The position numbers and the translations under genes were made by a program. Shown here piece after piece: positions 14,493-43,582 of a stretch of DNA of 64,000 bases. The notes beneath the pieces were generated by a model. It saw only the letters and a program-made list of their open reading frames with translations. It ran no database searches and was not told the origin of the DNA. The stretch lies in IMG/VR virus record IMGVR_UViG_3300033153_011579; one strand, written 5' to 3'. The stretch's first letter is position 1. Every line of letters starts with the position of its first letter. The DNA is from a virus (Duplodnaviria > Heunggongvirae > Uroviricota > Caudoviricetes).

Positions 14493-15164
14493 GTGAAGCT
14501 GAGAAAACCACCAATCCTCTGCTCGATCTGCGGAGACCCAATCGTCACGAAGTGGCGAGACAAGCGAAGGCAGACCTGCGGGTCTCCCGAGTGCCGGGTG
14601 GCGATCCTGCTCGAGCCGCACCTGGGCGACCGGACTCGACCGTACGCCGGCGGAGCTCGCGGGAAGTGGAAAAAAAGCACCAAGCGCGGGTCGGTGGTGC
14701 GCGACCTCGCGAAGTGGGGTATTGGGCTTTCCGAGGAGATCTCCACGAACCTCGCCGACGCGGCCGACCAGGTCTTTAAGAGAACCAAAACCGCGAAGGC
14801 GGTCGGGACGAAGAAGGACGAGCGCGGTGCGGACCACCCGGAGGCCCAGGCTCAGATCTGGGGCTTCCTCGCTCGTAGGAGCGCGCTCATAAAAGTCGTC
14901 AGCAAGGACGACGGCGAGCCCGGGTTGCTCATTCTCAAAACCAAAAGCGAGAGTGTCCCGCACGCCATCCGCCGTCTCCTGAGCATCACCCCGGTCTCCG
15001 AGAACCTGTGCGATGTCTTCATGGCGTGGAGCTGTCCTTGCCCTCAGGACTCTCGAGTGATTTACGAAACGATCGACGACCTGCCCAAGACGGTAGGCTA
15101 TCACGACCCGTGCCCGCGTTGCGGTGCGGCACCACTGGAGGTGAAAAATGTTCCTAAAAAATAG
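14493..15164 (+). CDS. Zn-finger protein (223 aa, GTG start)
   Basis: Cassette upstream; CSICG…CGSPEC …CPRCG. Confidence 0.6.
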   Translation: MKLRKPPILCSICGDPIVTKWRDKRRQTCGSPECRVAILLEPHLGDRTRPYAGGARGKWKKSTKRGSVVRDLAKWGIGLSEEISTNLADAADQVFKRTKTAKAVGTKKDERGADHPEAQAQIWGFLARRSALIKVVSKDDGEPGLLILKTKSESVPHAIRRLLSITPVSENLCDVFMAWSCPCPQDSRVIYETIDDLPKTVGYHDPCPRCGAAPLEVKNVPKK

Positions 15165-15528
15165 CGTGTTCCTTCCCGGGCGAGGCTGGCTACTCGTGAA
15201 GCCACCGGAGTCGGAAGCCGACACAGGAGAGGTCTACACTGTCGACGTGATCGAGCTCGCCGCCGAGGAGAAGTCCGCGTGCCCGCAGTTCCAGGAGGAG
15301 ACAGCGATACGCGGTGCTGGCGGCGCTCCGATGATGACCGTGGACATCGTGCTCCCGAAGCGCTGCTACGTCGGTGACCGGTGGAGCGTACTAAAGGACA
15401 GAGACGCAGTGCGCGAGGTACCCGACCTGGACGGTGCCCTGCTCAAGACCGAGGAGGTGATCGGCTGGGAGTGGGAGGACGACCGTCTCAAGCCGCCTCC
15501 TGGCGTCGTAGAGGACCTGGACTCCTGA
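15148..15528 (+). CDS. Hypothetical protein (126 aa); weak GroES-like N-terminus
   Basis: PGRGWLLVKPPESEADTGEVY loosely resembles the GroES mobile-loop region; speculative. Confidence 0.4.
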   Translation: MFLKNSVFLPGRGWLLVKPPESEADTGEVYTVDVIELAAEEKSACPQFQEETAIRGAGGAPMMTVDIVLPKRCYVGDRWSVLKDRDAVREVPDLDGALLKTEEVIGWEWEDDRLKPPPGVVEDLDS

Positions 15529-16487
15529 TGCCGACCAGAGCACACATCCAGGCGTTGGCCAACGCGAGAGAGGCTCTCGAGCCGTTCAGCCGGTGGCTCG
15601 TCCGCGGGTGCGGGAAGACCGATGGAGAGGCCGACTTCATCATCAGCTTCGTGTGTCGCGCGCTGTGGACTTCCACCGCCGACGACGACGAGGATCCCGA
15701 CCCGCTCGATTGCCTCTCCGAGCCGATGATCACCCGGCCGACATTCAACAAGCTGAAATCGGCCATCCGGCAGTATTACACCTGGCACCTCGTCCGGCAG
15801 TCGTCGCCACCGAGTGAGAAAGAGCGGGCGAGGCGGCAGCTCAGGCGGCTCGAATCCATCTTGCCGTACGGCGGCGTCGGGAGACGAGCCAAACGGGTCG
15901 CGATCGATGCGCTGTCGCAGGCGGATTTAAAAAAGCTCATGGACGGACTGAAAAAATGGCACGCGGAACAAGGACGGCGATGGCCCTGGAGCTACCCGGT
16001 GATCAGCATGTGCCTGAAGATCTCGCCGGCGATCAGAAACTGTCTGGTCTACCTCTCTCGTGAGGAGCTCGTCCTCGCTCTCGCCGACGGGGTGAACAGC
16101 GGGTCGTTCAACCTGTGGGTCCGCCAGAAGAACGTGCCGGTCATGAGGTCGATCCCCATCGGGCTCGTCTGGAAAGAGGCGGACATGCTCGTCGGCTGGC
16201 CCTGGCAATGGGAGACGCTCCAGGACATTATCTCGTCGTCCAACGCGAGCACCCAGAACTCGGTGAACAAGATCAAAGAGATCTCTTTCAAGTACTATCG
16301 CCACGTCCTGGGAGACATCGGCGACCCGAAGACGTTCTTAGCTCGACTTCGGTATGCCACCTGGGTCTGGCTCTTGAAAAAGACGAAAGGCGACTGGCTC
16401 TCCGTCGCGCAGATCGTCGGGAAGTCGGTAAAGATCCTCAGAAGACGGCCGGAGCTGCTCGAGGTCGTGTCGAGGAGGCTGAACTAG
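15528..16487 (+). CDS. Integrase-like protein with a degenerate catalytic box (319 aa)
   Basis: ARLRYATWVWLLKKTKGDWLSVAQIVGKS resembles box II of tyrosine recombinases (LRHTxAT…G.D…LGHS) but lacks the His and Tyr residues. Confidence 0.35.
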   Translation: MPTRAHIQALANAREALEPFSRWLVRGCGKTDGEADFIISFVCRALWTSTADDDEDPDPLDCLSEPMITRPTFNKLKSAIRQYYTWHLVRQSSPPSEKERARRQLRRLESILPYGGVGRRAKRVAIDALSQADLKKLMDGLKKWHAEQGRRWPWSYPVISMCLKISPAIRNCLVYLSREELVLALADGVNSGSFNLWVRQKNVPVMRSIPIGLVWKEADMLVGWPWQWETLQDIISSSNASTQNSVNKIKEISFKYYRHVLGDIGDPKTFLARLRYATWVWLLKKTKGDWLSVAQIVGKSVKILRRRPELLEVVSRRLN

Positions 16488-17191
16488 TCCGATACGCAGC
16501 GAGTGTACTGAGACTCGGTCTTGAGAGACCCCCACACATAGGCCTCGGAGAACAGGACGCCCCAGGCGTACGCCGGGTTGTTCCCGGGCGAGCTCGACCA
16601 GTGGTACGACCAGCACGGACCGACAAGGTCATCCCCCCAGTAGCACCCGTCCGACCCGGGGCCTTCCAATTCGGCGCACGGATCGCAGTCGGGACCCTCC
16701 GCGCACGGATTCGTCAGGCAGTCGGGGTCGGTCACCCCGCAGTCTACCGACGCGCAGCCGACGATGATTCCCGACAGCTCCTGGATCAGCGGGAGTCGCC
16801 AGTCGTCGCCGAGGGCCTCGCAGTAGTCGACCGCGTCGACCCAGAGCATGAGCTCGGTGCTCGGCGGGTTCTCCCAGCAGAGGTCGCCGTCTAGCCAGCA
16901 GGTGGCCGTGTCGGTATCGGTGTCGGTATCGGTGTCGGTGTCGGTATCGATCACTGTTTCCGTATTGGTTTCGGTATCTTGCGTGTCTGTGTCGATCACG
17001 GTGTCCGTGTCGGTGTCCGTATCGGTCTCGGTGTCGGTGTCACCGTCGGTGTCCGTGTCCGTGTCGGTGTCCGAATCGACGTCCGTGTCGGTGTCGCCGG
17101 CGTCCGGCTCCATGAACGGAGCCTCGGTATCGCCGCAGGCCATCACAATTGCGAATATCCAAATATATCTCATCCTACATCTCCTCCCCAT
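16484..17191 (-). CDS. Lipoprotein with (TD)n repeats and a DUF1566/Lcl-like C-terminal Cys-rich domain
   Basis: Lipobox IVMAC-G, about 35 Thr-Asp dipeptide repeats, WRLP..EL motif; strong SD GGGGAGGAG. Confidence 0.6.
   Translation of the reverse strand: MGRRCRMRYIWIFAIVMACGDTEAPFMEPDAGDTDTDVDSDTDTDTDTDGDTDTETDTDTDTDTVIDTDTQDTETNTETVIDTDTDTDTDTDTDTATCWLDGDLCWENPPSTELMLWVDAVDYCEALGDDWRLPLIQELSGIIVGCASVDCGVTDPDCLTNPCAEGPDCDPCAELEGPGSDGCYWGDDLVGPCWSYHWSSSPGNNPAYAWGVLFSEAYVWGSLKTESQYTRCVSD
16890..17110. repeat. Coding microsatellite (GTCGGT/ATCGGT)n encoding the (TD)n tract
   Basis: Hexamer-periodic repeats visible in the sequence; the + strand alternative frame reads VSVSVS. Confidence 0.8.
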
Positions 17192-17596: not shown

Positions 17597-18598
17597 CTAA
17601 AAAGGCGTCTTCCGCTCTGCTGCAGCCCTGATCATACCGTCTATCTCGCTCTTCAGCCACTCTCGCTCTCGCTCGGTCGGCTCCCGCCCCTTCACGCGGC
17701 CCGTGAACCACCCCAAATCGGCCTCCCAGTCGTACTCGTCGGCGAACACCCGGACCACCTGCAGCATCCGGTCTTTTACGTGCGCTCGAGTCAACCTCCC
17801 GCGGGAGATCGGCGCAGGCTTCTCCAGCGTCGCCATCAGCCCGCTAGCGGGTATGTATTCCTCGGACTCGTCCGGCTCGTCCTCTGAGGCCTCGTCGGGC
17901 TCGAGAGGCTCAGAATCGCCCTGAGGGGCGCTAGCGCCCTCTTTACATTGTTCACTAACACTGGAATCGGCGTTGACCGCGTTGATCAGGACAACGTGAT
18001 CGTCCAGCTTGTGCCAGAACGCTTGGACGAGTCCAGAGCACATCGCCTCGTCGAGCTTCTCGTCGTCCTCTTGCAGGCCGGACATCATGACCCGCCGAGT
18101 GTCAGGGTAGGTCGCCTCGATCTCACTCAGCAGACCGAGACCAGACATCCCAGGCATCTCGAAGTCGGTGATGACCACGTCGAACGTCCCGAGCTTGTTG
18201 ATGAGCATGATCGCCTGACTCGCCGAGCTCGCCTGGGTCGTCTCCCAGTCTTTGGGGAGAAGCCGGCAGACCGTCCGCCGCATGATGTCCTCGTCGTCGA
18301 CCACGAGGATGCGCAGGCGTCTCTTCGACGTCCTGGCTTCCGGAGGGTTGGTCCAGGCCCGGCACTCGCGAGCGAGGTTGACGTTCCCAACGCGCTCGGA
18401 GGTCGCGTAGACCGTCTCGATCACGGACTGCCAGAGGCCGCTGCAGGACTCGGGAGGTCCCCAGATCTCCTTCGGCCCAGCTCCCTCGATGGAGCTCAGC
18501 AGCCGGCCCTTGATCGTCGGGTCGAACAGCCCCTCTTTGAGAAACTGCATCGCGACCTCGCGAAGCTCGGGGTCCAGTGGTCGTCTAGATTTTGTCAT
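17597..18598 (-). CDS. Response-regulator receiver (CheY-like) protein with an unknown N-terminal domain and an acidic C-terminal tail
   Basis: ILVVDDEDIM…VVITDFEMPGMSG…RVMMSG receiver signature; motif C immediately upstream of ATG. Confidence 0.7.
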   Translation of the reverse strand: MTKSRRPLDPELREVAMQFLKEGLFDPTIKGRLLSSIEGAGPKEIWGPPESCSGLWQSVIETVYATSERVGNVNLARECRAWTNPPEARTSKRRLRILVVDDEDIMRRTVCRLLPKDWETTQASSASQAIMLINKLGTFDVVITDFEMPGMSGLGLLSEIEATYPDTRRVMMSGLQEDDEKLDEAMCSGLVQAFWHKLDDHVVLINAVNADSSVSEQCKEGASAPQGDSEPLEPDEASEDEPDESEEYIPASGLMATLEKPAPISRGRLTRAHVKDRMLQVVRVFADEYDWEADLGWFTGRVKGREPTEREREWLKSEIDGMIRAAAERKTPF

Positions 18599-26062: not shown

Positions 26063-26266
26063 TCAATCCTCCCTCGTATATTTGTCTAAGAGCGCCTGCT
26101 GCTCCTTGGTGAGTTCTTCTCCGATCTGGGTCAGCATGACGACGTGCCAGAACTCGCACATCTCCCGCTGGGCGTCGTCGCACATTATTTGGAACTCGTC
26201 GGTGATCGTCTCGCCTTCTTCGAGCGGCGGCGCTTTGATCTCGACGGTCCAGGTGATCTCAGTCAC
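26063..26266 (-). CDS. Small acidic all-alpha protein, possible minimal MazG-like fold
   Basis: LEEGETITDEF…QREMCEFWHVVMLTQIGEELTKEQQALLDKY loosely matches the ExxE…ExxE helices of MazG; weak. Confidence 0.25.
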   Translation of the reverse strand: MTEITWTVEIKAPPLEEGETITDEFQIMCDDAQREMCEFWHVVMLTQIGEELTKEQQALLDKYTRED

Positions 26267-27368
26267 GGATCACCTCGACGATCCCTTTGGCAGTTGGTGA
26301 CAAGCTCGCGAGGACCGCATCGGCTCCGGTGACCTCCCTGATGTGCGCCAGGAACTTTGCGTCGTCGTCCATCTTCAAGATCTCGCCGCCGTCGAAGAAC
26401 CGAAAGTCGTCGTTGATGAGGTCGAGGCACGTGACGGCCAGCTCCGGGGTTTTCGTCATGATGTAGTCGTCTTTGTAGATGGCGTAGCTGAGCAGGTCGA
26501 GATCCAGGAGGGTCTTCCTAAATGTTCCCTGGGGGCCGTCGTCCGGGTTCTGCTCGTGTGGATTGTCCTTGATGTTGCAGGGGACGATGTCGCTCATCGG
26601 ACCTTTCCCATGCCGCGTCTGGTAAGCGCGGGTGACGAGCACGATCTCCGGCTCGTATCCCATCTCGCAAATATTTTTCGACCCGGTGTTCGTCGGAGTG
26701 ACGTATGGAAAAAAACCAAAATTCTGGTCGAGCAGCAGGCCTTGCGACCCTTCCCAGATAACCGTTTCGAACGAATCGATGACCTGCTCGTTCGACATCC
26801 CGATGGCCGCGTTGTGTGTCACCTCGTCGCACGCGACGAAGAAATTTTGGATGATGTAGTCGTCCGGTCTGAAGCCGTAGTATTGATAAAACTGCTCCAT
26901 CTTCATCCGCATTATTCTCGGGTGGAACAGGTCTTCGAACAGCAGGTGATGACCCTCCCGCTCTCTTTTGACGGTCGCGAAGATTCCGACCTCACAGCTG
27001 CCGCCGAAATCGGAATTCCGCTTATTCCACTCGATTTCAAACGGCGTGGTGACCGGGCACCTGTGGTCGACGAGGAGTCGTGGGAAGACTTTTTTCACCA
27101 GCAAGACGTCGAGCTCGTTCATGAGGGCGACGGGGTTGACCGAGCAGTATTTCGACCAGAAGGTCGGGACGCCTCGGAACGACCCGCTACCGAAATGAGA
27201 AAATACGTGAGACCTACCGTCCTCGAGCACCACCTGATGCGCGGCCTGGTGGCCGCCCGAGAACCGCACCACGAGCTCGGCCTTGTTGACGTCACAGAGG
27301 TAGTCGACCAGATGTCCTTTCCCCTCGTCCCCAAAGCCGAGCCCGATGACAGCGATGTGCTTGGTCAC
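26259..27368 (-). CDS. purZ?: Adenylosuccinate-synthetase-family enzyme (PurA homologue; candidate PurZ/PurZ0)
   Basis: N-terminal MTKHIAVIGLGFGDEGKGHLVDYL…VVRFSGGHQAAHQV matches the PurA P-loop and GGHNAGH signatures. It is 369 aa versus about 430 for bacterial PurA. Confidence 0.7.
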   Translation of the reverse strand: MTKHIAVIGLGFGDEGKGHLVDYLCDVNKAELVVRFSGGHQAAHQVVLEDGRSHVFSHFGSGSFRGVPTFWSKYCSVNPVALMNELDVLLVKKVFPRLLVDHRCPVTTPFEIEWNKRNSDFGGSCEVGIFATVKREREGHHLLFEDLFHPRIMRMKMEQFYQYYGFRPDDYIIQNFFVACDEVTHNAAIGMSNEQVIDSFETVIWEGSQGLLLDQNFGFFPYVTPTNTGSKNICEMGYEPEIVLVTRAYQTRHGKGPMSDIVPCNIKDNPHEQNPDDGPQGTFRKTLLDLDLLSYAIYKDDYIMTKTPELAVTCLDLINDDFRFFDGGEILKMDDDAKFLAHIREVTGADAVLASLSPTAKGIVEVIRD

Positions 27369-29478: not shown

Positions 29479-30102
29479 TCAAAAGCTCTTCCTACCGGTC
29501 AGCTTCGTGACCAGTTTTCCAATTTCGTCTGGCGTGGGCGCGTCGGGATCCGCCTCGGTCGACCCGGGCAAGAGGTGGGCGTCCTGCGCCGGCCGCAGAC
29601 TCGGGCACAGCACCTGTGCTGCTCCTGCCGTGAGCCGCCCCTTGTCGACCGCGGCCTTGATGGTTGACTCGCGCGAGCTGACGTCGTGCCCCAGGCTGAC
29701 CAGCCACGCGGGCTTCTCGCTCGAGTCTCGCCGGCTCGCGATCTTCTTCCTGTAGATTTCCAAAAACGCAACGCGGGCCGCCACGCGGTCGGTCATCTGG
29801 CGCACCGCCTCGAACGCCTCGGCGATCTCCTGCGTCCAGACGGTCGTGTCGTGCTCGGAGTGCGGGCAGAGGGCCCAGGCCTCTTGTGGGTCCGGCCAGC
29901 CGGTGTCCACCCGCTCGAGGATCGCAGCGAGGGTGAGACGACGGCTCAACTCCCGCCGGCACCGACGAAGCGCGTGCAGCACGACGTCGTCCGGATACAA
30001 GGACAATTCCTCGACCATCTCGGCTGTCGCCGCCTCGGAGAGCTCGGTCGCGCAGATCTCGGCGGTGACCGCCAAGGCGATCACGAGATTACTCTTCTTC
30101 AT
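29479..30102 (-). CDS. Hypothetical protein downstream of rep (about 207 aa)
   Basis: Start chosen at MKKSNLVIALAV…; start uncertain. Confidence 0.4.
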   Translation of the reverse strand: MKKSNLVIALAVTAEICATELSEAATAEMVEELSLYPDDVVLHALRRCRRELSRRLTLAAILERVDTGWPDPQEAWALCPHSEHDTTVWTQEIAEAFEAVRQMTDRVAARVAFLEIYRKKIASRRDSSEKPAWLVSLGHDVSSRESTIKAAVDKGRLTAGAAQVLCPSLRPAQDAHLLPGSTEADPDAPTPDEIGKLVTKLTGRKSF

Positions 30103-31111
30103 CTTCTTCAGCTTTGTATTTGTCGCGGAGTTTTCTCGCGACGTCCCCCGTGGTCGCCCGGCGGTCCGACGCACGCGCCGCGCCGTCGGTTATCTGTGAC
30201 CCGGTGGCCCACTCGGTCCTCACGGTCTCGGCGTCGACGAGCAGGGTGGGGAGGGCGTGGCCCTTCTTCACGTACCAGCCCTTGTTCATCGAGACGTAGT
30301 GCGCAACGACCTGCTCGGCGTCGGCGGCACCCAGGCGCTCGATGATGCGCCTTATGGCCGTGTTGGCCAGCGCGTTGCGCACAGGCGGAGTGCCGTACCG
30401 GAGCTTATAGGCGGCCGAATAGGCCTCCCAAACTCTCCCTGCTATCACCAGCCTCTCCTCCTTCGGCTTCGCCTTCGGTTTTTTCCTAGCTTCAGGTTTT
30501 TTCTCAACCGGGGTCACGGGCGCTTGCGCGCGTGAAGGATCCGGATCTCTCCCGTCGGGTTCCCCTCCGGGATCCCTTTCTGGATCTGGATCTGCCTCTG
30601 ATCTCTGCCTCTGCTTCTGCCTCTGCCTCTGCATGGCGTTACTATCGTTACTGGGCGTTACAGGGGGGTTACTAGGTGTTACATCAGCGTTACCAAGCGT
30701 TACATCAGCGTTACCATTACCTTTTTCATCCTCTTTTTTCCTCTCCCTGTACCTCCTTACCCTCTCAGCGGTTTTTTCTCGCCTATCGTCCGCCGAGCAC
30801 AGCTGCCGGTACTTCTCGCTGTTCAGCACCTTCCAGCCGCCGTCCACCGGGGCGATCCGCCGGCCCTCGTAATCCGGGGTCCTCGAGTGCTCGTCTGGAC
30901 TCATCAGCCGCTCGAGAGCTTCTTTGCAAAGGTCGAGGTCCACCCGCGCCTCGTGGGAGAGGCCGGGGACGCTCGCGCTCACGATCCCGTCTCTGTCCAT
31001 CAGCGCGAGCATCGTGATCCACACCAACCGGACGTGGTCCTCTTCGCAAACCCAGATCGACGACTGGAGAATCGAACTGTGCAACTTCGTAAAACCTCTG
31101 GTCATGGACAC
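30089..31111 (-). CDS. Putative replication initiator / replisome-organizer-like protein carrying internal iterons
   Basis: N-terminus FTKLHSSILQSSIWVCEEDHVRLVWITMLALMDRDGIV resembles phage replication-initiator N-domains. The basic linker is encoded by the GTTAC iteron array. Confidence 0.5.
   Translation of the reverse strand: MSMTRGFTKLHSSILQSSIWVCEEDHVRLVWITMLALMDRDGIVSASVPGLSHEARVDLDLCKEALERLMSPDEHSRTPDYEGRRIAPVDGGWKVLNSEKYRQLCSADDRREKTAERVRRYRERKKEDEKGNGNADVTLGNADVTPSNPPVTPSNDSNAMQRQRQKQRQRSEADPDPERDPGGEPDGRDPDPSRAQAPVTPVEKKPEARKKPKAKPKEERLVIAGRVWEAYSAAYKLRYGTPPVRNALANTAIRRIIERLGAADAEQVVAHYVSMNKGWYVKKGHALPTLLVDAETVRTEWATGSQITDGAARASDRRATTGDVARKLRDKYKAEEDEEE
30636..30716. repeat. Iteron array: 8 x GTTAC at 9-11 bp spacing inside the rep gene (candidate origin)
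   Basis: GTTAC starts at 30638, 30647, 30657, 30668, 30678, 30689, 30699 and 30710 (mean spacing about 10.3 bp). Flanked by a (CTGCCT)n tract. Confidence 0.7.
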
Positions 31112-32839: not shown

Positions 32840-33718
32840 CTACCTCTTGGCCGGCGACACTACAGGAATCGAGCTCCCCTCGCCCGTGGCGATGACCTTG
32901 TCGCCGGGCCCGACGCGTTTATAAAGCGTCTTCTTGGCTTCGATCTCTCGCAGCGCAAGGTACTTGTCGGTGAGCGCGCCCCCCATGATCTTCACGTAGA
33001 CCGCCTCGGACTCCGCCTCGGCCGTCCTGACCGCCTTCATCTTCTCGGCGACCTTCAGCCGGTTGTCGGCCTGGAGCAGCTCCATCGCCTGCTTCGCCTT
33101 CTCCTCGTCGATCTCGATCTCTCGCCGGCGCTTCTTTTCGACGGCCTTGGTGATGACCTCCGGGTAGTCGAAGTTCGAGGTGACGACGCTCACGAGCTGC
33201 ATCGGCGTCCCCTTCAGCGAGGCGTGCAGCTGCTTGTGAATCTCTTTCTGGATCGCGTCCCGGTTTTCTCTGATCTGCGTCGTCGAGTATTTGCTCACGA
33301 TGCCACGCGCGATCGACCGAGCCTCGGGCTTCACGTACACGTTGTACAAGCTCTCGAACCCGAGTGCCGCCGCGTCGTACTCATCCCATCGCTCCATCTT
33401 CGACCCCTGGCGATTCAGGAGCTCCTTGATCGCAGATCCGTCTGCCGAGACCAGCCGCGTCCTCGTCACCAAATTGAACCTGAAGTTCAGGTCGTCCGAG
33501 CACAGGACGCTCATCTTCTCCTCGATGGCGTCCTCCTTCGTGTCGACCAGCTGCATCGAGTCGCGACCCCAGCACCCGTGGTGACCGGGTTGTAACACCT
33601 CGCCCGTCAGCCCTCCCGGGGTCTGTACCATCCCCACCCAGCCCGCAGGAACTACCTCGTTGCAACCGATGACCAAAAACGCCGCCAGGAACATTCCCAA
33701 AACACATGCTGATTTCAT
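32840..33718 (-). CDS. SPFH/Band-7 (stomatin/prohibitin-like) lipoprotein
   Basis: Lipobox LVIGC; SPFH region …KAVEKKRRREIEIDEEKAKQAMELLQADNRLKVAE…; start at 33718 (ATGA overlap, SD AGAGAGG). Confidence 0.6.
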   Translation of the reverse strand: MKSACVLGMFLAAFLVIGCNEVVPAGWVGMVQTPGGLTGEVLQPGHHGCWGRDSMQLVDTKEDAIEEKMSVLCSDDLNFRFNLVTRTRLVSADGSAIKELLNRQGSKMERWDEYDAAALGFESLYNVYVKPEARSIARGIVSKYSTTQIRENRDAIQKEIHKQLHASLKGTPMQLVSVVTSNFDYPEVITKAVEKKRRREIEIDEEKAKQAMELLQADNRLKVAEKMKAVRTAEAESEAVYVKIMGGALTDKYLALREIEAKKTLYKRVGPGDKVIATGEGSSIPVVSPAKR

Positions 33719-34077
33719 TGCCGAGCCTCTCTTTCTTCGGTGGTGAAGTCCACCTTGGAGCCACCGCGAACGCACGCGATGACTTGTTTGAGTTCTGCGA
33801 TCACAAACCGACCGAGACCGATCCTGTCGAGGTCGATGATGAGGGGCGGTGTCGTGTAGCCACGATCGTTGATCCTCACACGGAAGTTAACCCAGTCGCC
33901 GACCTTCACCCTGGTAAACCACCCGCGCACGGCGACCACCTCCCCGCGGAGGGTGTTTGTTTTCTCCGAGAATTTATCTCCGCAGTCGTCGGCGTGGATC
34001 CGCACGATCATCGACTTTCTCGGCATCGACGTGACGATGCCCTTGATGTCCTCCCTCTGAATTTCTCTATCGGCCAT
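33715..34077 (-). CDS. Putative OB-fold NfeD-like partner of the SPFH protein
   Basis: GEVVAVRGWFTRVKVGDWVNFRVRIND beta-rich segment; sits between a membrane protein and the SPFH gene. Confidence 0.35.
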   Translation of the reverse strand: MADREIQREDIKGIVTSMPRKSMIVRIHADDCGDKFSEKTNTLRGEVVAVRGWFTRVKVGDWVNFRVRINDRGYTTPPLIIDLDRIGLGRFVIAELKQVIACVRGGSKVDFTTEEREARQ

Positions 34078-36152: not shown

Positions 36153-36465
36153 TGGTGTTTCCTCTCGCCGCGGAGCCATCTAGCCACACCGTTACCTACA
36201 TGTCAACACAGTGGCAAAAAAACTTAGCACTTGACAGGGTGGGAGAGATGGATACAGTGTGTGCAATGTATTCAGAGGTATCACACTGCACTCGCCACCA
36301 CCACGCAGTTGCTAATAGGTGCTCATATAAAGGATCACCTATTGTTGTAGCACAGGTGTGTGTAGTACGGCATGCTACATGTCCCTACCCACCCCCCCCT
36401 AAAAAACGAAAAAAAACGAGTAGTTTAAAAAAAACGATCACCTCCGGTCACGTTCAAAGGATTTT
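36153..36465. promoter_or_regulatory. Divergent AT-rich control region between the leftward and rightward operons
   Basis: Back-to-back TTGACA boxes (rc at 36203-36208 and + at 36230-36235). Hairpin AATAGGTG-N14-CACCTATT. GTAGCAC/GTAGTAC/GCTAC repeated half-sites. A poly-C/poly-A tract before the 36466 SD. Confidence 0.55.
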
Positions 36466-37780: not shown

Positions 37781-38246
37781 TTTGGCATCGCCGCGTCAGG
37801 GTGCTCTGGCCGATCTTCTCTCCACTGGAGAGTTACTCCCGATGGTCCTGGTCGCCCTCGGCCTGGCGATCGTCATCACGTGCACCAGGGCCGGCTACCC
37901 GCTCCGCTTCCTGTGGTGCATGCTCTTCAACTTCCGCTTCACCAGGTGGCTCTGGAACCTCGTGCTCTGCCCTCACTGCTGCTCGTTCTGGACCGGCTTC
38001 GCCGTTGGGTATGCGGTCACGGGTGACTGGATAAAAACCATACAGATCGCCGTCACGGCGTGCGGCGTCATGTACGTGCTCCAGAAGACTTTCTCACGAG
38101 ACCGCATTGTCGCCGCCGACCGTGTCCACGGCGACAGGTGGGTCTTGGATGTTCGCGGCGTAGCGTTTGAACCCCCTGAGGATTTCGAAGAGATCCTCGG
38201 TATAAAAAACGGTTTGAAGGAGACTCCAGATGACGAAGATGGGTAA
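37773..38246 (+). CDS. Polytopic membrane protein (157 aa, probable TTG start)
   Basis: SD AAAAGGAG 7 nt upstream of TTG; three hydrophobic helices. Confidence 0.5.
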   Translation: MINLASPRQGALADLLSTGELLPMVLVALGLAIVITCTRAGYPLRFLWCMLFNFRFTRWLWNLVLCPHCCSFWTGFAVGYAVTGDWIKTIQIAVTACGVMYVLQKTFSRDRIVAADRVHGDRWVLDVRGVAFEPPEDFEEILGIKNGLKETPDDEDG

Positions 38247-40275
38247 ACAACTCGGGGAAGCACTCGAAAAGAGCTTCGACAGAACCATCAGGGATTTCAG
38301 AACCGAGAGCCGGTCCACCGGCACCACGGGCCTCGATGCGCTCGAGCAGCTCGGGAGGGAGTTCGAAACCGTCAGCGTCAACATACATAGGAAAAACGAG
38401 CACGGTAAGTACACCCTGTTCTCTCCACTCGAGGGCGTGGCCGTCGCCGACCTCCTGCAGCAGGGGTACGACGTCTTTTGCAAGAACGAGGGCGGCGAGG
38501 GCGACTACAAGGTGGAGGTTGTCATCCCGGCGAAGGAGCCGGGGAAGCCACCCGTCCGTCGCTGGGAGGGGCCGTTCATCGTGAGCGGCACGCCGCGGCT
38601 CGAGGTCTCCAAGACCGAGATGTCCAAGCAACAGAACAGTTTCGGATTTCCGTTCAACATGATGAGCGGCCTCCCCGCGAACACCGCCGCCGCCGGCAAC
38701 CAGGGAGGAGCTCCCTACGTCCGCGACCTGCTCCAGCAGATGAACAAGTCCTCCGAGAGCCAGAACAACATGGTGCAGCAGATGATGGGCCTCATGATGA
38801 TGAAGGACATGATGCCCGGCGCGGACCAGAAGAAGAACGGCGAGACCGACGCCAATAACCCGGCCGTGCTCGCGCTCCAGACCCAGGTCAGCGAGGTGAC
38901 CCGACGGCTCGACGACGAGCGCCGACGGTCGGAGGACGACCGCCGATCTCGAGATCAGGAAAAGCGTATCGAGGCCGCCGAGCGACGCGCCGAGGAGAAC
39001 CACCGAGAGGTACTCCGCCTGCTCGACAACAACAAGACCACCGAGACCATCGAGCTCATGAAGCTCCAGCGCGACGGCCAGGGCTCCAAGGACGACTCGT
39101 TCCTCAAGCTGATGGCCATGAACCGTGAGGATTCCAACCAGTCCCAGGCGCGGTTCGACGGGCTCATGATGAAGCTGTTCGACAAGCCAGACGGCGTCGA
39201 CCAGAGCTCGAAGGTCATGGGCATGATGATGGAGTCGTCCGTCGCCCAGCTCAACATGATGACCCAGATCGCCGCGAGCGGTCTCGCCGGAGGTTCCGAA
39301 AACCCGTGGATCGACCTCGTCCGCGAAGGGGTCGGCACGGTCAAGGAAGGTTTCAAGGGCGTCCTCGCCATGAAGTACGGCATCGACATGGACGGCGACG
39401 ACGAGGACGGCGAAGATGGCGAAGAGGCCCCGGCCCCCCTCACCCAGCACGTCCCGCCGGCGAAGATCGAAGCGCGGACCGACCCGGAGACCGGAGAGGC
39501 GGTACCGGAAGAAGCACAGACCACCGTCGACCAGCCGGCTCCAGAAGAAGACACCGAGGACGAAATCCCGCAGAGCGCGCTCGACGACGCCGACGAGCTC
39601 AAAAAATACATCCTCACCGACGACGAGCTCACGGGGCTCGCGCAAAACCGGCAGACGCAAAAAATCCTCAAGGCCGTCGAGGAGAAGGACTATCCGCAGG
39701 CCACCGCCCGGATCTTCGAGCGCGTCCGTGGCAAGTCGCCCGTCCACAAGCGCTGGCTCAAAGCCCCCGGCCCGCTCACCGCGCAGATCCTCACGCACTT
39801 CGGGCTCACGCACCACATGTTCGCGATGACCCAGAACCTGATCGACTTCATCGGCCATATGAACGGCGGTGGAAATCCGAACGACTGGTCCGAGAACTAC
39901 AAGCCGGTCAAGGAAAAGAAGGAGAGCAAGATGAAACCCGACAACCCCGCAGCCACCGAGCTGGGCGTGACCATGGGCGAGCGCAAGGAAGGCGAGGACT
40001 ACGACGCGTCGAAGGTTCCCGACGATCCCAAGCTGGCCGAGCTGGCCGAGCAGCAGCGAGCTCTGCGCGAAGAGAAGAACGTGCTCGACCAGATGGAGCA
40101 GATCGAAGAGAACATCGGGTTGCTCAAGGAAGGGAAGATCGACCCGCAGCGCGCGGCGTTCCTGCGCACGGAGAAGAAGCTCCCGGCGTCCGGAGAAGAG
40201 GACGAGGCGCTCAAGGAGATCGCAAAGCTGCGGCACGACATAAAGAAGCAGCAGGCCGAGGAGGGGAGGGCTTAA
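38230..40275 (+). CDS. Large acidic, Met-rich, coiled-coil protein (681 aa)
   Basis: Protein-like composition, Met-rich blocks MMGLMMMKDMMPG and MGMMMESSVAQLNMMTQ, long acidic linker. The antisense 722-aa ORF has artefact composition. Confidence 0.7.
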   Translation: MTKMGKQLGEALEKSFDRTIRDFRTESRSTGTTGLDALEQLGREFETVSVNIHRKNEHGKYTLFSPLEGVAVADLLQQGYDVFCKNEGGEGDYKVEVVIPAKEPGKPPVRRWEGPFIVSGTPRLEVSKTEMSKQQNSFGFPFNMMSGLPANTAAAGNQGGAPYVRDLLQQMNKSSESQNNMVQQMMGLMMMKDMMPGADQKKNGETDANNPAVLALQTQVSEVTRRLDDERRRSEDDRRSRDQEKRIEAAERRAEENHREVLRLLDNNKTTETIELMKLQRDGQGSKDDSFLKLMAMNREDSNQSQARFDGLMMKLFDKPDGVDQSSKVMGMMMESSVAQLNMMTQIAASGLAGGSENPWIDLVREGVGTVKEGFKGVLAMKYGIDMDGDDEDGEDGEEAPAPLTQHVPPAKIEARTDPETGEAVPEEAQTTVDQPAPEEDTEDEIPQSALDDADELKKYILTDDELTGLAQNRQTQKILKAVEEKDYPQATARIFERVRGKSPVHKRWLKAPGPLTAQILTHFGLTHHMFAMTQNLIDFIGHMNGGGNPNDWSENYKPVKEKKESKMKPDNPAATELGVTMGERKEGEDYDASKVPDDPKLAELAEQQRALREEKNVLDQMEQIEENIGLLKEGKIDPQRAAFLRTEKKLPASGEEDEALKEIAKLRHDIKKQQAEEGRA

Positions 40276-40511
40276 TGGTCAACCACCAGGACCTGATGAA
40301 GCAGGCCGAGGCCATCTTCATCTTCTTCGAGCGAGAGGTGGAAAAATACGAGCGCGACCAGGGCGCACAGATGCTGACCGACAAGCCCACCAGAGAGGTG
40401 TGTCGGAAGACGCTGGTCGCCGCCGGGAACTACATCGCGAGAGCTATCGACGACCTCACCAAGATCGACGAGCACGAAGAGCTGCAGAAGAAGCAGCATC
40501 AGGAAGGGTAA
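40275..40511 (+). CDS. Hypothetical protein (78 aa)
   Basis: TAATG overlap; real part of the Arg-rich 39306..40511 ORF. Confidence 0.5.
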   Translation: MVNHQDLMKQAEAIFIFFEREVEKYERDQGAQMLTDKPTREVCRKTLVAAGNYIARAIDDLTKIDEHEELQKKQHQEG

Positions 40512-40512
40512 A

Positions 40513-40872
40513 ATGAAAGTCATCATCCACCCGCTTGGCGAGCGCGTACTCGTCGAGCCGTTCGACCTCGAAGGGGCGACCGCCGCCGGCGTCATCATCC
40601 CGCTCTCCAAGGGCTCCCACAAGCTCGGGAAGATAGTCGCCGTCGGCGACGACCTCGAGCCGTTGTGTGAAGAGACCGAAGCGGAGAGCGAGCTCGACGA
40701 CGACGAGGAGCTCGACCCCGTGAGCTCTTGGGGCCCCCCCCCTGTCGCGGTCGGCGACAGCATCATCTACAACCGCTTCCTCCCGCTCATCCTCCCCACC
40801 GATGATTCGAAAATCGAGAAGCACATGGTTGCGCTCGAGGACATCCAGGGCCGGGTCGAGATCGAAAAGTGA
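40513..40872 (+). CDS. groES-like: GroES-like co-chaperonin (Hsp10 family) with an acidic insert
   Basis: IHPLGERVLVEPFDLEGATAAGVIIPLS…KIVAVGDD…VAVGDSIIYN…IEKHMVALEDI matches the GroES pattern (PLgDRVLV…T.gGI.iP…G.VvAvG). Confidence 0.6.
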   Translation: MKVIIHPLGERVLVEPFDLEGATAAGVIIPLSKGSHKLGKIVAVGDDLEPLCEETEAESELDDDEELDPVSSWGPPPVAVGDSIIYNRFLPLILPTDDSKIEKHMVALEDIQGRVEIEK

Positions 40873-40874
40873 AC

Positions 40875-41207
40875 ATGTTCGAAAAACCGGTGGTCGTCGG
40901 GCCGCTGAGAGAGGAAGAGAAAATGTCAGCAGATAGAACCATCGACGCGGGGAAGGCGCGAGAGGCTGCCAAGGAGATCGGGGGACTCTTCTACGAGACC
41001 AAGGTGCAGACCAAGAAGCAGGCACGTGAGGTCGCACTCAGGATGGCCGATATGCCGATCGACTGGCACGGTATCATCGAGATCGTCGAGGACGGCCTCT
41101 TCGTGCACCACGGCTCACTCGAGACGGTAAAGTTGCTCCAGATTGCCGAGGGTGCCTGGACCGACCAGACGCTGGCCCTCACGTTTGTCGGCAAGCTGTT
41201 CGACTGA
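40875..41207 (+). CDS. Hypothetical protein (110 aa)
   Basis: ATG 40875 just after the GroES-like stop. Confidence 0.5.
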   Translation: MFEKPVVVGPLREEEKMSADRTIDAGKAREAAKEIGGLFYETKVQTKKQAREVALRMADMPIDWHGIIEIVEDGLFVHHGSLETVKLLQIAEGAWTDQTLALTFVGKLFD

Positions 41208-41348: not shown

Positions 41349-41951
41349 ATGAACCCAGAGGTGCATCGTGGGGTCACGAGCATCAAGCAACGACTCGACC
41401 TGATAGCACAAAGGATCGATGTCAGCGTTCGTAGACCCCAGAAATCCTTAGACGGACGGCAGTTCATGCTCAAGGATTTCACTCACTTCATCGTTCGCGG
41501 TACCCCACAACACGGCCCAGCATCAGAAGAAGAGCCCATCAACGCGGTGTTCAGCTACGTGAAAAACAACATCGAGTACCGCCAGGATCCGACGGGCTAC
41601 GACTACTACATGGGTGCCGGGCGCATCATCAACTCCAAGGCCGGCGACTGCGACGACCTCACCATCATCATCTGCGCGATGCTCGACAGCATCGGCTACC
41701 GCACTGGAGCTCGGGTGATCTCTCCCGACGGGCACCAGTGGCACATCTACTCGCTCGCCGGGGTCGACCCTGCGTTCAACGGGGAGCCCTCGAGAGTCGT
41801 ACCGCTCGACGCTGCCTACGGTGACGAGCCCGGCTGGGAGCCGTCGAACAGATTTCGAAAGTACGAGCAGCAATGCACCTTCTTTAAGGGCAAGGTCGTT
41901 GGCTACAAGGTCGTCCGGGACGGCGGGTCCTGGTTCAATTTTTTCAGGTAG
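41349..41951 (+). CDS. Transglutaminase-like cysteine-protease-fold protein
   Basis: GDCDDLTIIICAMLDSIGYRTGARVI (G.C.D…G.pAR core) followed by His (GHQWHIY) and Asp. Confidence 0.5.
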   Translation: MNPEVHRGVTSIKQRLDLIAQRIDVSVRRPQKSLDGRQFMLKDFTHFIVRGTPQHGPASEEEPINAVFSYVKNNIEYRQDPTGYDYYMGAGRIINSKAGDCDDLTIIICAMLDSIGYRTGARVISPDGHQWHIYSLAGVDPAFNGEPSRVVPLDAAYGDEPGWEPSNRFRKYEQQCTFFKGKVVGYKVVRDGGSWFNFFR

Positions 41952-42928: not shown

Positions 42929-43279
42929 GTGGGCGACGTCATCACACTGGACGGCCTCGACTCCACGACACTCTCCGGCACGAAGTGCGGGAAGCTCGTG
43001 TCGATCAACGCTCCGATGCTCGGGCAGAGCGTCCAGGTGTGCGAAACTGACGTCAGCCGCATGGCAGGCCTCGCGGGCGTCAAGCGCCGTCCTGGCCGCC
43101 CCAAGAACACCACCGTCAAGAACGGAGCGCGCAAGCCCCGGTTCAAGGGCTGCGGCTCTACCAAGGTAGTGAAGACCAAAAAAGGGAAGAAGATCTGTAA
43201 GTGTGCAGATCGTGGAAACGGGCAGATCCTGCCCCATAAATCCTGTGGGTTGGGAAAGCCCACGAAAAGGAGTCGATGA
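42929..43279 (+). CDS. Basic Cys-containing protein (GTG start)
   Basis: ORF; KR-rich. Confidence 0.4.
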   Translation: MGDVITLDGLDSTTLSGTKCGKLVSINAPMLGQSVQVCETDVSRMAGLAGVKRRPGRPKNTTVKNGARKPRFKGCGSTKVVKTKKGKKICKCADRGNGQILPHKSCGLGKPTKRSR

Positions 43280-43398
43280 TGGCCAGACGGAAGAAGAAGA
43301 AGGGTATCCGCACTGCTTCGGGTCGCTGCCGGTTCGGCAAGGTCAAGAAGGGCCGCCGGAAGGGCGCTTGCCTCAAGTCCAAGCGCGCCCGCAAGTAG
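43276..43398 (+). CDS. Poly-basic peptide (40 aa), not in ORF track
   Basis: SD AAGGAG 4 nt upstream; MMARRKKKKGIRTASGRCRFGKVKKGRRKGACLKSKRARK*. Confidence 0.5.
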   Translation: MMARRKKKKGIRTASGRCRFGKVKKGRRKGACLKSKRARK

Positions 43399-43471
43399 CC
43401 TTCGCCTGCTCTTTTAGCGGGCGGAACACACCGCAGCAGGCGAGTGATCCGCCCTGCGGAAGGAGGAGAAC

Positions 43472-43582
43472 ATGAAGAAGGGTACGTGCAAGCAGAACAA
43501 GAACAAACGCGGAGCCAAATGGGTCTGCCGGTCGAAGAAAACCGGCAGGGTCAAATTCTCCAAAACAAAGCTCTACAAGTGA
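43472..43582 (+). CDS. Poly-basic peptide (36 aa), not in ORF track
   Basis: SD GGAAGGAGGAGAAC-ATG; MKKGTCKQNKNKRGAKWVCRSKKTGRVKFSKTKLYK*. Confidence 0.5.
   Translation: MKKGTCKQNKNKRGAKWVCRSKKTGRVKFSKTKLYK

What the first reader, a model, noticed from the sequence alone, without database searches (positions are those of the whole stretch)
40513..40872. Virus-encoded GroES-like co-chaperonin with an acidic insertion
- The sequence follows the GroES pattern, with a ~35-residue acidic insertion between the two conserved halves.
- It sits right after the 681-aa Met-rich protein and before structural genes, as with T4 gp31, which is needed for capsid folding.
- A second, weaker GroES-like N-terminus is at 15148..15528.
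Basis: partly seen in the sequence, partly recalled or inferred. Interest (0 to 1): 0.5.

Follow-up and report, generated by a model that had tools for sequence, protein, structure and literature searches.

The report
Phage GroES with acidic roof loop
A small gene in what is probably a phage genome encodes a real but very divergent relative of the bacterial GroES chaperone lid, in which the short 'roof' hairpin is replaced by a longer, floppy, strongly acidic loop. Phage GroES genes are already known to be common, so this is a modest variation, not a new kind of thing.

Summary
The ORF at 40513..40872 (+, 119 aa) is real and belongs to the Cpn10/GroES family.
- Pfam Cpn10 scores 31.6 bits against a cut-off of 21.1 (N-terminal half only).
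- PHROG 'co-chaperonin GroES' matches at 2e-6.
- A profile-profile comparison with canonical GroES gives 99.1% probability over the full length.
- The AlphaFold model's best PDB and BFVD matches are all GroES, Hsp10 or T4 gp31.

The glycine plus hydrophobic tripeptide that binds GroEL is kept (G26-V-I-I).

The "insertion" sits exactly where the roof hairpin should be. It is a 32-residue, predicted-disordered segment with 14 Asp/Glu and no Lys/Arg, replacing about 14 residues. The net gain is therefore about 18 residues, not 35.

Only about six relatives were found. All but one, whose contig is too short to tell, lie in the same conserved gene block, and the loop length and charge vary among them.

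- ORF 15148..15528 is not GroES-like.
- A 78-aa gene separates the gene from the 681-aa protein, and no downstream gene could be shown to be structural.

The window looks phage-derived, with several strong PHROG hits, and no GroEL is encoded in it.

Most likely this is a phage lid for the host GroEL with an altered, highly negative roof. That function is inferred, not shown.

The parts
40513..40872 (+). GroES/Cpn10-family gene, 119 aa (stop codon included)
   Evidence: ORF. GC3 0.87. Pfam Cpn10 31.6 bits against cut-off 21.1. PHROG 3188. hhalign 99.1% to canonical GroES. Fold matches.
40501..40508 (+). Shine-Dalgarno-like AGGAAGGG. The TAA stop of the upstream 78-aa gene (40509..40511) lies 1 nt before the ATG, which suggests translational coupling.
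   Evidence: Read directly from the sequence.
40561..40626 (+). Equivalent of the mobile loop (residues 17-38, FDLEGATAAGVIIPLSKGSHKL). It is 2-3 residues shorter than in E. coli GroES.
   Evidence: Alignments. pLDDT below 50 for residues 20-26.
40588..40599 (+). G26-V27-I28-I29: a conserved glycine plus hydrophobic tripeptide, the GroEL-binding motif of GroES (G-I-V-L in E. coli)
   Evidence: Aligned column by column with GGV(I/V)I of canonical GroES. Kept in all relatives. The criterion is as stated in PMC5649160.
40648..40743 (+). Acidic segment at the roof position (residues 46-77, DDLEPLCEETEAESELDDDEELDPVSSWGPPP). It has 14 D/E, 0 K/R and is predicted disordered.
   Evidence: Position between AVG and V-x-VGD. 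Charge count. pLDDT below 50 for 50-62 and 65-73.
40744..40869 (+). C-terminal half of the GroES barrel (residues 78-119, VAVGDSIIY...)
   Evidence: Second phmmer stretch matching V-K-VGD-x-V-x-Y of PDB GroES chains. hhalign columns 79-117. pLDDT 84-92.
40636..40650 (+). Left copy of a 15-nt direct repeat (GTCGCCGTCGGCGAC, encodes VAVGD) bordering the acidic segment
   Evidence: the repeat finder family D3, 14/15 identical, 108 nt apart.
40744..40758 (+). Right copy of the 15-nt direct repeat (GTCGCGGTCGGCGAC, encodes VAVGD)
   Evidence: The 108-nt spacing equals 36 codons, so a deletion between the copies would be in frame.
40275..40511 (+). 78-aa gene between the 681-aa gene and the GroES-like gene; no family hit
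38230..40275 (+). 681-aa Met-rich, acidic protein of unknown function; a conserved upstream neighbour
   Evidence: No Pfam, PHROG or PDB hit. Homologues P0023-P0026 exist, and GroES-like genes follow them in L007, L008 and L003.
40875..41207 (+). 110-aa conserved downstream neighbour (JGI's ATG start at 40875; the mechanical ORF starts at GTG 40869); function unknown
   Evidence: Homologues lie downstream of the GroES-like gene in L005, L003, L007 and L006.
41349..41951 (+). Transglutaminase-core-like (papain-like fold) protein, a conserved member of the same gene block
   Evidence: Pfam PF01841 E=1.1e-6. 72% identical homologue in L005. Also present in L007 and L009.

Best explanation
The gene encodes a phage-borne, highly divergent GroES-family co-chaperonin.

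Shown:
- It is homologous to GroES over its whole length.
- It is predicted to adopt the GroES beta-barrel.
- It keeps the glycine plus hydrophobic tripeptide of the mobile loop.
- It lies inside a long plus-strand operon of a phage-like element that encodes no GroEL within the 64 kb window.

Inferred:
- It forms a heptameric lid that docks through the G-V-I-I loop onto the host's GroEL during infection, as T4 gp31 and many metagenomic viral GroES proteins are thought to do.
- The canonical roof hairpin is replaced by a 32-residue disordered loop with 14 acidic and no basic residues. Seven subunits would place about 98 extra negative charges at the apex of the dome.
- The most likely effect is a change in the charge, hydrophilicity or openness of the cavity ceiling, tuning the host chaperonin for one or more phage proteins.
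- The loop varies in length and charge between close relatives, so it is a rapidly evolving, lineage-specific feature rather than a defining trait of the family.
For: Family membership:
- Pfam Cpn10 above its cut-off and PHROG 3188.
- PDB sequence hits, 18 of 19 to Cpn10, with a second stretch on the VGD motif.
- hhalign 99.1%, E=1.4e-18, full length.
- The sister protein P0002 matches NCBIfam GroES models end to end.

Fold:
- AF2 with a 14-sequence alignment gives pLDDT 72, with the core at 80-92.
- The Foldseek top 35 in PDB are all Cpn10, GroES or gp31.
- 58 viral models match at E<=0.001; all of those that carry a name are called GroES or Cpn10.

Mobile-loop motif: conserved in all family members.

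Roof position, charge and disorder of the insert.

Phage context:
- phrog_2971, 6028, 874, 631 and 11527 at 1e-18 to 1e-43.
- A PurA-like gene with 239 phage matches.
- SLT, GP88 and Laminin_G_3 domains.
- No tRNA or Rfam hit and no housekeeping genes.

No GroEL: the only ORFs of 500 aa or more (681 and 605 aa) have no Cpn60 hit.

Precedent:
- Viral GroES without a viral GroEL is common, and the roof hairpin is a known site of viral variation (PMC5649160).
- gp31 lacks the roof loops (PMC6318259).
Against: - No experiment or complex model supports heptamer formation or GroEL binding.
- Scores against the NCBIfam GroES models are far below their cut-offs (31 bits against 96-215), so it is not an equivalog of cellular GroES.
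- The mobile loop is 2-3 residues shorter than in E. coli GroES and carries a family-specific GKG(N/S)x(K/R)LGK motif of unknown meaning.
- Relatives L006 and L009 lack the gene at this position, so it is dispensable, or located elsewhere, in related viruses.
- The acidic loop is low-complexity and variable. L007 differs from P0002 by a single Asp codon. It may have no specific function.
- The AF2 alignment was mostly canonical GroES, which biases the model towards that fold. The single-sequence model was uninformative (pLDDT 41).
- The host and its GroEL are unknown.
Confidence: 0.65

Rival explanations
1. The protein is a working co-chaperonin, but the acidic roof loop is a functionally neutral low-complexity expansion. 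It would have arisen by replication slippage or recombination in a tolerant surface loop and would not tune the folding chamber.
For: - Loop length and composition differ in every relative. The segment between the G of the conserved VG(D/E) and V-x-VGD is 32 aa in the window, about 24 in P0002, 23 in L007, about 17 and Cys-rich in P0003, and about 14 in P0004 and L008.
- The DNA shows short repeats: GAGCTCGAC occurs twice and GAC three times in a row.
- The loop is predicted disordered.
- Roofless co-chaperonins such as gp31 and the N-terminal domain of Cpn20 still function, which shows the roof tolerates drastic change.
Against: - The composition is extreme (14 acidic, 0 basic) and is shared in direction by the 56%-identical P0002, which has 10 acidic residues. 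This suggests selection for negative charge rather than random drift.
- The gene is identical in three samples.
Confidence: 0.35
2. The protein has the GroES fold but no longer acts as a GroEL lid. It would instead be a dedicated assembly or scaffolding factor for the conserved neighbouring proteins: the 681-aa Met-rich protein, the 110-aa protein and the transglutaminase-like protein.
For: - Gene order is tightly conserved: big protein, GroES-like, 110-aa protein, transglutaminase-like, in L003, L005, L007 and L008.
- Family-specific invariant motifs absent from GroES: PFD-x-EG, GKG(N/S)x(K/R)LGK, and WGPPP in the window and P0002 lineage.
- Scores far below the NCBIfam GroES cut-offs.
Against: - The one motif that matters for GroEL docking, glycine plus three hydrophobic residues on a disordered loop, is conserved in every member.
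- Both termini that form the inter-subunit strands in GroES align.
- Synteny alone is weak evidence in phage late operons.
Confidence: 0.15
3. It is the partner of a phage-encoded GroEL that lies in the roughly 18 kb of the 82-kb contig outside this window, rather than of the host GroEL.
For: - The longest contig carrying the protein is 82,351 bp, so part of the genome is unseen.
- Viral GroES and GroEL pairs are known (PMC5649160).
Against: - In the known viral pairs the two genes are adjacent, in either order. Here the neighbours on both sides are unrelated small genes.
- No ORF in the 64 kb window hits Cpn60.
- The mobile-loop glycine is kept, whereas the paper notes that it is replaced in GroES proteins paired with a viral GroEL.
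Confidence: 0.07
4. The acidic crown is the functional part. A ring carrying seven polyanionic loops would act as a nucleoplasmin-like chaperone for the very basic small proteins encoded 2-3 kb downstream, or as a DNA mimic against host DNA-binding defences.
For: - Monomer net charge is -16, against -3 for E. coli GroES.
- Three consecutive very basic ORFs lie downstream: 42929..43279 (pI 10.5), 43279..43398 (39 aa, 20 K/R) and 43472..43582 (36 aa, 15 K/R).
Against: - Purely circumstantial.
- Relatives P0003, P0004 and L008 have no acidic expansion, so this cannot be the ancestral role.
- Nothing links the genes except being in one operon.
Confidence: 0.06
5. The window is cellular (chromosome or plasmid) rather than viral, and this is a divergent extra bacterial groES paralogue.
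For: - No terminase, portal or capsid family was detected.
- The contig is absent from IMG/VR.
- A response-regulator receiver domain and an SPFH protein are present.
Against: - Multiple strong matches to phage-only PHROG families, and a phage-type PurA-like gene.
- Dense short co-directional ORFs, most without any family.
- No tRNA, rRNA or housekeeping genes.
- No relative in 185,579 species genomes.
Confidence: 0.05

Closest known systems
Bacterial GroES / Cpn10 (Pfam PF00166; e.g. E. coli GroES 1AON, M. tuberculosis Cpn10 1P3H)
   Same: - Collinear over the whole length (hhalign 99.1%).
- Same predicted beta-barrel.
- Glycine plus hydrophobic tripeptide on a disordered mobile loop.
- AVG and V-x-VGD-x-x-Y motifs.
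   Different: - About 22-30% identity in the structural alignments to solved GroES and Hsp10 chains.
- Scores far below the NCBIfam GroES cut-offs.
- The 14-residue roof beta-hairpin is replaced by a 32-residue disordered polyacidic loop.
- The mobile loop is 2-3 residues shorter.
- Monomer net charge is -16 against -3.
- It is not next to a groEL gene.
- From my own knowledge, not tested here: the M. tuberculosis Cpn10 dome loop is also acidic and binds divalent cations, but it has normal length.
Phage T4 gp31 (1G31) and RB49 CocO
   Same: - A phage-encoded lid for the host GroEL with no phage GroEL.
- The roof is the part that has been remodelled.
   Different: - gp31 has lost the roof loops and has a longer mobile loop, 22 residues against 16 (PMC6318259). 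Here the roof is enlarged and the mobile loop slightly shortened, the opposite changes.
- 16-17% identity in the structural alignments.
- No evidence here of a capsid-protein client.
Metagenomic viral GroES (PHROG 3188; virioplankton co-chaperonins of Marine et al. 2017, PMC5649160)
   Same: - HMM match to PHROG 3188.
- 58 viral GroES-type models share the fold, with lengths of 78-200 aa among the 50 listed.
- 'GroES only' viruses are described as common, and the mobile-loop glycine plus hydrophobic triplet is usually conserved.
   Different: - No close sequence relative in INPHARED phages, IMG/VR, metagenome contigs or species genomes.
- Only about six family members were found among billions of proteins.
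- The paper describes roof-hairpin deletions, not acidic expansions.
Chloroplast Cpn20/Cpn10/Cpn23 co-chaperonins
   Same: - The best PDB sequence hit is Cpn20 (E=4.9e-6).
- They are an example of roof variability between GroES-like domains giving different cavity ceilings (bioRxiv 10.1101/432013).
   Different: - Those are tandem-domain or hetero-oligomeric plastid proteins.
- Their variation is loss of the roof, not a polyacidic expansion.
- The related locus L005 does carry two different Cpn10-like genes in tandem. This would allow hetero-oligomers there, but the window has only one.

Membership tests
Cpn10/GroES (Pfam PF00166) | Profile-HMM match above the curated gathering score | tested here: met
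   31.6 bits against cut-off 21.1, E=1.7e-7, but the aligned stretch covers only residues 5-46, profile 2-44 of 93.
Cpn10/GroES (Pfam PF00166) | Homology over both halves of the domain (collinear N-terminal half and V-x-VGD-x-x-Y C-terminal half) | tested here: met
   hhalign of the family profile against canonical GroES: 99.1%, E=1.4e-18, 93 columns, 1-117 against 2-97. Second phmmer stretch at 73-94. Sister P0002 matches GroES models end to end.
Cpn10/GroES (Pfam PF00166) | Single-domain GroES beta-barrel fold | tested here: met
Cpn10/GroES (Pfam PF00166) | Flexible mobile loop carrying a conserved Gly followed by three small hydrophobic residues (the GroEL-binding motif) | tested here: met
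   G26-V-I-I aligns with G-G-V-I-I or G-I-V-L. Conserved in all relatives. pLDDT below 50 at 20-26. Criterion as stated in PMC5649160.
Cpn10/GroES (Pfam PF00166) | Roof beta-hairpin closing the dome | tested here: not met
   It is replaced by a 32-residue segment with no predicted strand and pLDDT below 50. The roof is also absent in accepted members (gp31, Cpn20 N-terminal domain), so this does not exclude membership.
Cpn10/GroES (Pfam PF00166) | Heptameric ring, and nucleotide-dependent binding to GroEL | not testable with these tools
   Only monomer prediction was available, and there is no biochemical data.
Cellular GroES equivalog (NCBIfam PRK00364 models) | Score above the curated cut-off of the model (equivalog or subfamily) | tested here: not met
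   The best score is 31.4 bits against cut-offs of 96-215 bits. It should not be named as the housekeeping GroES.
T4 gp31 / CocO-type phage co-chaperonin | Roof loops absent and mobile loop lengthened (22 against 16 residues) | tested here: not met
   The roof segment is lengthened to 32 residues and the mobile loop is 2-3 residues shorter than in E. coli GroES. The features of gp31 are taken from PMC6318259.
T4 gp31 / CocO-type phage co-chaperonin | Required for folding of the major capsid protein | not testable with these tools
   No capsid protein could even be identified in the window.
Phage GroES (PHROG 3188) | HMM match to the PHROG profile, in a phage genome | tested here: met
   E=2.2e-6, 28.4 bits, residues 5-48. 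Phage context. PHROGs has no curated cut-off.
GroES-like domain of MDR alcohol dehydrogenases / quinone reductases | N-terminal GroES-like domain fused to a Rossmann domain, matching ADH_N | tested here: not met

The most novel reading that the evidence does not exclude
The polyacidic, disordered roof loops turn the GroES ring into something more than a lid. Seven loops with about 98 negative charges would form an anionic crown. This crown would either act inside the GroEL cage as an electrostatic folding aid, or act on its own as a nucleoplasmin-like chaperone or DNA mimic for the three extremely basic small proteins encoded 2-3 kb downstream in the same operon. The flanking 15-nt VAVGD repeats would allow the phage population to switch between 'crowned' and 'roofless' lids by an in-frame 36-codon deletion.
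Probability: 0.07. Interest if true: 0.6.

Novelty: new variant of a known kind. Interest (0 to 1): 0.3.

Why it matters
Phage co-chaperonins show how a virus re-tools the host's GroEL folding chamber. The textbook case, T4 gp31, does this by removing the roof and lengthening the mobile loop to fit its capsid protein.

This protein makes the opposite change. It enlarges the roof with a highly negative, disordered loop, and close relatives carry shorter or Cys-rich versions. If the protein is functional, these relatives form a natural series for asking how the charge and openness of the cavity ceiling affect chaperonin-assisted folding.

The finding also helps annotate a very poorly characterised group of phage-like contigs, in which most of the genes scanned have no family match. 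On present evidence it is a modest extension of a well-known theme, not a new mechanism.

Tried and rejected
- **Second GroES-like ORF at 15148..15528.** Rejected: no Cpn10 hit and hhalign probability 0.25%.
- **Single-sequence AlphaFold model.** Uninformative, pLDDT 41. It was replaced by a model from a 14-sequence alignment.
- **Searches for relatives with context.**
  - Nothing in INPHARED phages (tblastn).
  - Nothing in IMG/VR by protein pattern or exact DNA.
  - Nothing in JGI metagenome contigs or GTDB species genomes.
  - Relatives came only from the HMMER scan of 1.8 billion representatives and from homologues of the neighbouring 681-aa gene.
- **Attempt to show that downstream genes are structural.** No Pfam or PHROG hit for ORFs between 42 and 54 kb. 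No PDB sequence hit for the 605-aa and 681-aa proteins. Only the distal ORFs carry tail-fibre-like domains: Laminin_G_3, GP88 and GDSL lipase at 56.5-62 kb.
- **GroEL in the window.** None found; no ORF hits Cpn60.
- **Gene on the opposite strand.** The ORFs at 40272..40766 and 40456..41037 (-) are shadow ORFs of a GC-rich coding region. The plus frame has the expected GC3 of 0.87 and GC2 of 0.35.
- **MDR-dehydrogenase GroES-like domain.** Rejected.
- **Promoter and terminator scan.** No terminator between the genes on the plus strand. The only sigma-70-like site is at 36231..36258, at the head of the plus-strand block.
- **Rfam and tRNA scans of the window.** Empty.
- **AFDB50 fold library.** Unavailable.

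Full report
**1. The observation**

An ATG-to-TGA ORF lies exactly at 40513..40872 on the plus strand and encodes 119 aa. Its coding signal is strong: GC by codon position is 0.68/0.35/0.87. An AGGAAGGG motif lies just upstream. The stop codon of the preceding 78-aa gene ends one base before the ATG, and the next gene starts within a few bases of the TGA.

JGI's gene caller predicted the identical protein on two further contigs from other samples. These are 100% and 99.84% identical to the window at the DNA level. The long minus-strand ORFs overlapping the gene are shadow ORFs typical of GC-rich coding DNA.

**2. Is it GroES-like beyond chance?** Yes.
- Pfam Cpn10 (PF00166) gives E=1.7e-7 and 31.6 bits, above the 21.1-bit gathering score. 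The aligned stretch covers only residues 5-46, the first half of the profile.
- PHROG 3188, 'co-chaperonin GroES', gives E=2.2e-6.
- phmmer against all PDB sequences returns 18 Cpn10, GroES or Hsp10 chains among 19 hits. A second, weaker stretch places residues 73-94 (WGPPPVAVGDSIIYNRFL) on the V-K-VGD-x-V-x-Y motif of the second half.
- A profile of the four closest relatives compared with a profile of ten canonical GroES sequences gives 99.1% probability and E=1.4e-18. It aligns 93 columns, query 1-117 against GroES 2-97. The homology is therefore full-length.
- The sister protein P0002 matches NCBIfam GroES models end to end.
- All NCBIfam GroES scores are far below their curated cut-offs (31 bits against 96-215). 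This is a divergent family member, not a housekeeping GroES.

**3. Fold**

The single-sequence AlphaFold model was useless, with pLDDT 41. With a 14-sequence alignment the model reaches pLDDT 72 and pTM 0.63. The beta-strand core scores 80-92, and two regions fall below 50: residues 20-26, and 50-62 plus 65-73.
- Foldseek against the PDB: the first 35 hits are all Cpn10, GroES, Hsp10, Cpn20 or T4 gp31. The best is 1P3H at E=1.5e-6.
- BFVD viral models: 58 matches at E<=0.001. All of those that carry a name are called GroES or Cpn10.
- Caveat: most rows of the alignment were canonical GroES, which biases the model towards that fold. The sequence evidence in section 2 does not depend on it.

**4. 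Anatomy**

The alignments map the protein as follows.
- Residues 5-16 (IHPLGERVLVEP) correspond to the N-terminal strand.
- Residues 17-38 correspond to the mobile loop.
- G26-V-I-I aligns with the glycine plus hydrophobic tripeptide that contacts GroEL (criterion as given in PMC5649160). This motif is kept in every relative.
- The loop is 2-3 residues shorter than in E. coli GroES. It carries a family-specific GKG(N/S)x(K/R)LGK motif.
Residues 46-77, DDLEPLCEETEAESELDDDEELDPVSSWGPPP, have 14 Asp/Glu and no Lys/Arg.
- This segment sits exactly where GroES has its roughly 14-residue roof beta-hairpin. The net insertion is therefore about 18 residues, not about 35.
- The monomer's net charge is -16, against -3 for E. 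coli GroES (the E. coli sequence was taken from memory). A heptamer would carry about 98 acidic side chains in the roof region.

**5. Relatives and context**

The protein is nearly an orphan.
- A word-indexed search of 5.8 billion clusters found only the protein itself.
- A full HMMER scan of 1.84 billion representatives found 11 hits. Only three are close: P0002 (103 aa, 56% identity), P0003 (96 aa) and P0004 (94 aa).
- Following homologues of the upstream 681-aa gene added two more. One is a 102-aa variant of P0002 lacking a single Asp in the loop (L007). The other is a partial gene with a normal-length, non-acidic roof (L008).

Gene order is conserved: large Met-rich protein, sometimes a small gene, GroES-like, a roughly 110-aa protein, then a transglutaminase-core-like protein. 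Three variations stand out.
- L005 carries a second, different Cpn10-like gene (113 aa, Pfam 1.2e-8 over the full length) directly after the first.
- L006 and L009, which are more distant, have no GroES-like gene at this position.
- The roof segment differs in every member. It is 32 aa and polyacidic in the window, 23-24 aa and acidic in P0002 and L007, about 17 aa with four Cys in P0003, and about 14 aa in P0004 and L008.

The acidic expansion is thus a recent, lineage-specific elaboration of a hypervariable loop. The gene itself is accessory within this virus group.

**6. Is it viral?** Probably.
- No capsid, portal or terminase family was detected, and the sequence is not in IMG/VR.
- The minus-strand block at 22-31 kb has several strong hits to phage-only PHROG families: phrog_2971 at 1e-42, phrog_6028 at 7e-43, phrog_874 at 2e-41 and phrog_11527 at 6e-18. 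There is also a weak hit to a replication-initiator family.
- A PurA-like gene has 239 phage matches.
- SLT, GP88, Laminin_G_3 and GDSL-lipase domains fit lysis and tail-fibre functions.
- There are no tRNAs, Rfam RNAs or housekeeping genes.
- No relative of the protein was found in 185,579 species genomes.
- The window encodes no GroEL. The only ORFs of 500 aa or more have no Cpn60 hit.

**7.
- ORF 15148..15528 is not GroES-like.
- The gene is not immediately after the 681-aa gene; a 78-aa gene intervenes.
- 'Before structural genes, as with T4 gp31' cannot be supported, because no downstream gene is identifiable as structural. As far as I recall, T4 gene 31 is itself not adjacent to the head genes. 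That is my own knowledge and was not checked here.

**8. Mechanism**

The best-supported reading is a phage-encoded lid for the host GroEL.
- Shown: family membership, predicted fold, a conserved docking motif on a disordered loop, a phage-like context and the absence of a cis-encoded GroEL.
- Inferred: heptamer formation, GroEL binding, and any effect of the acidic roof.

Known precedents make the roof a plausible tuning site. T4 gp31 lacks the roof loops and has a longer mobile loop, which enlarges and opens the cage for gp23 (PMC6318259). Some virioplankton GroES clusters lack the hairpin (PMC5649160). Chloroplast co-chaperonins mix domains with and without roofs (bioRxiv 10.1101/432013). 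This protein goes the other way, with a bigger and strongly anionic roof. Whether that changes folding, or is a neutral low-complexity expansion, cannot be decided computationally. I give the neutral reading about one chance in three.

**9. Novelty and score**

Viral GroES genes are well known and abundant. This is a very divergent small clade with an unusual roof, so I class it as a new variant of a known kind. Interest is modest (0.3).

The most novel reading not excluded is this. The anionic crown may have its own function: electrostatic tuning of the cage, a nucleoplasmin-like role for the adjacent very basic proteins, or DNA mimicry. It may also be switchable through the flanking VAVGD repeats. 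I give this about 7%.

Noticed in passing
window 40636..40650 and 40744..40758: A 15-nt direct repeat, 14/15 identical, with both copies encoding VAVGD, brackets the acidic roof segment at a spacing of 108 nt (36 codons). Recombination or slippage between the copies would delete the roof exactly in frame and give a gp31-like 'roofless' lid.
   Followed up: partly
L005 116..738 (JGI 3300041080): A related contig carries two different Cpn10-like genes in tandem: P0004 (94 aa), then a 113-aa protein with a full-length Pfam Cpn10 hit and its own Cys-rich insertions. They lie ahead of the same 110-aa and transglutaminase-like genes. This would allow hetero-oligomeric lids, as in chloroplasts.
   Followed up: partly
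window 42929..43582: Three consecutive very basic small ORFs lie 2-3 kb downstream of the polyacidic GroES-like gene in the same operon: 116 aa with pI 10.5, 39 aa with 20 K/R, and 36 aa with 15 K/R. They may be DNA-condensing or core proteins.
   Followed up: no
window 26259..27368 (-): A short PurA-like adenylosuccinate synthetase homologue (368 aa; Pfam 1.1e-39). It has 239 phage matches, some annotated as PurZ-type '2-aminooxy adenylosuccinate synthetase'. NCBIfam gives purA 110 bits and PurZ 38.8 bits, both far below their cut-offs. It may mark a modified-base (2-aminoadenine) pathway, but this is undecided.
   Followed up: partly
window 40938..40947 (compare L002 6777/6778): The 99.84%-identical contig from another sample has a 10-nt deletion inside the gene just downstream of the GroES-like gene. 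This shifts the frame near its N-terminus. It could be a natural variant or an assembly error.
   Followed up: partly
window 30585..30714 (inside ORF 30089..31111, -): Tandem repeats of 6, 12 and 21 nt (for example GGCGTTACATCAGCGTTACTA, 3.9 copies) lie inside an ORF that weakly matches a phage replication-initiation family (phrog_2447, 1e-5). They resemble iterons and may mark an origin of replication.
   Followed up: no
window 16908..17096 (inside ORF 16484..17191, -): 31 copies of a hexamer (GTGTCG on the plus strand) lie inside a gene whose product has an Lcl C-terminal domain (Pfam 7.5e-12). This would give a dipeptide-repeat stalk, as in collagen-like adhesins.
   Followed up: no
window 38230..40275 (+): A 681-aa protein with 33 Met, Met/Gln-rich patches, a charged coiled-coil-like stretch and an acidic tract. 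It has no Pfam, PHROG or PDB match. It is conserved (37-46% identity) in at least four other metagenomic contigs, always at the head of the same gene block.
   Followed up: partly
window 17597..18598 (-) and 32840..33775 (-): A response-regulator receiver domain protein (Pfam 3.5e-15) and an SPFH/Band 7 protein (1.4e-17) are encoded in the phage-like element. Both are unusual cargo for a phage.
   Followed up: no
window 36231..36258 (+): This is the only sigma-70-like promoter match in 35.8-42.2 kb (TTGACA, 16-nt spacer, TACAGT; 10 of 12 positions). It lies in the divergent intergenic region where transcription switches from the minus-strand block to the plus-strand block that contains the GroES-like gene.
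   Followed up: no
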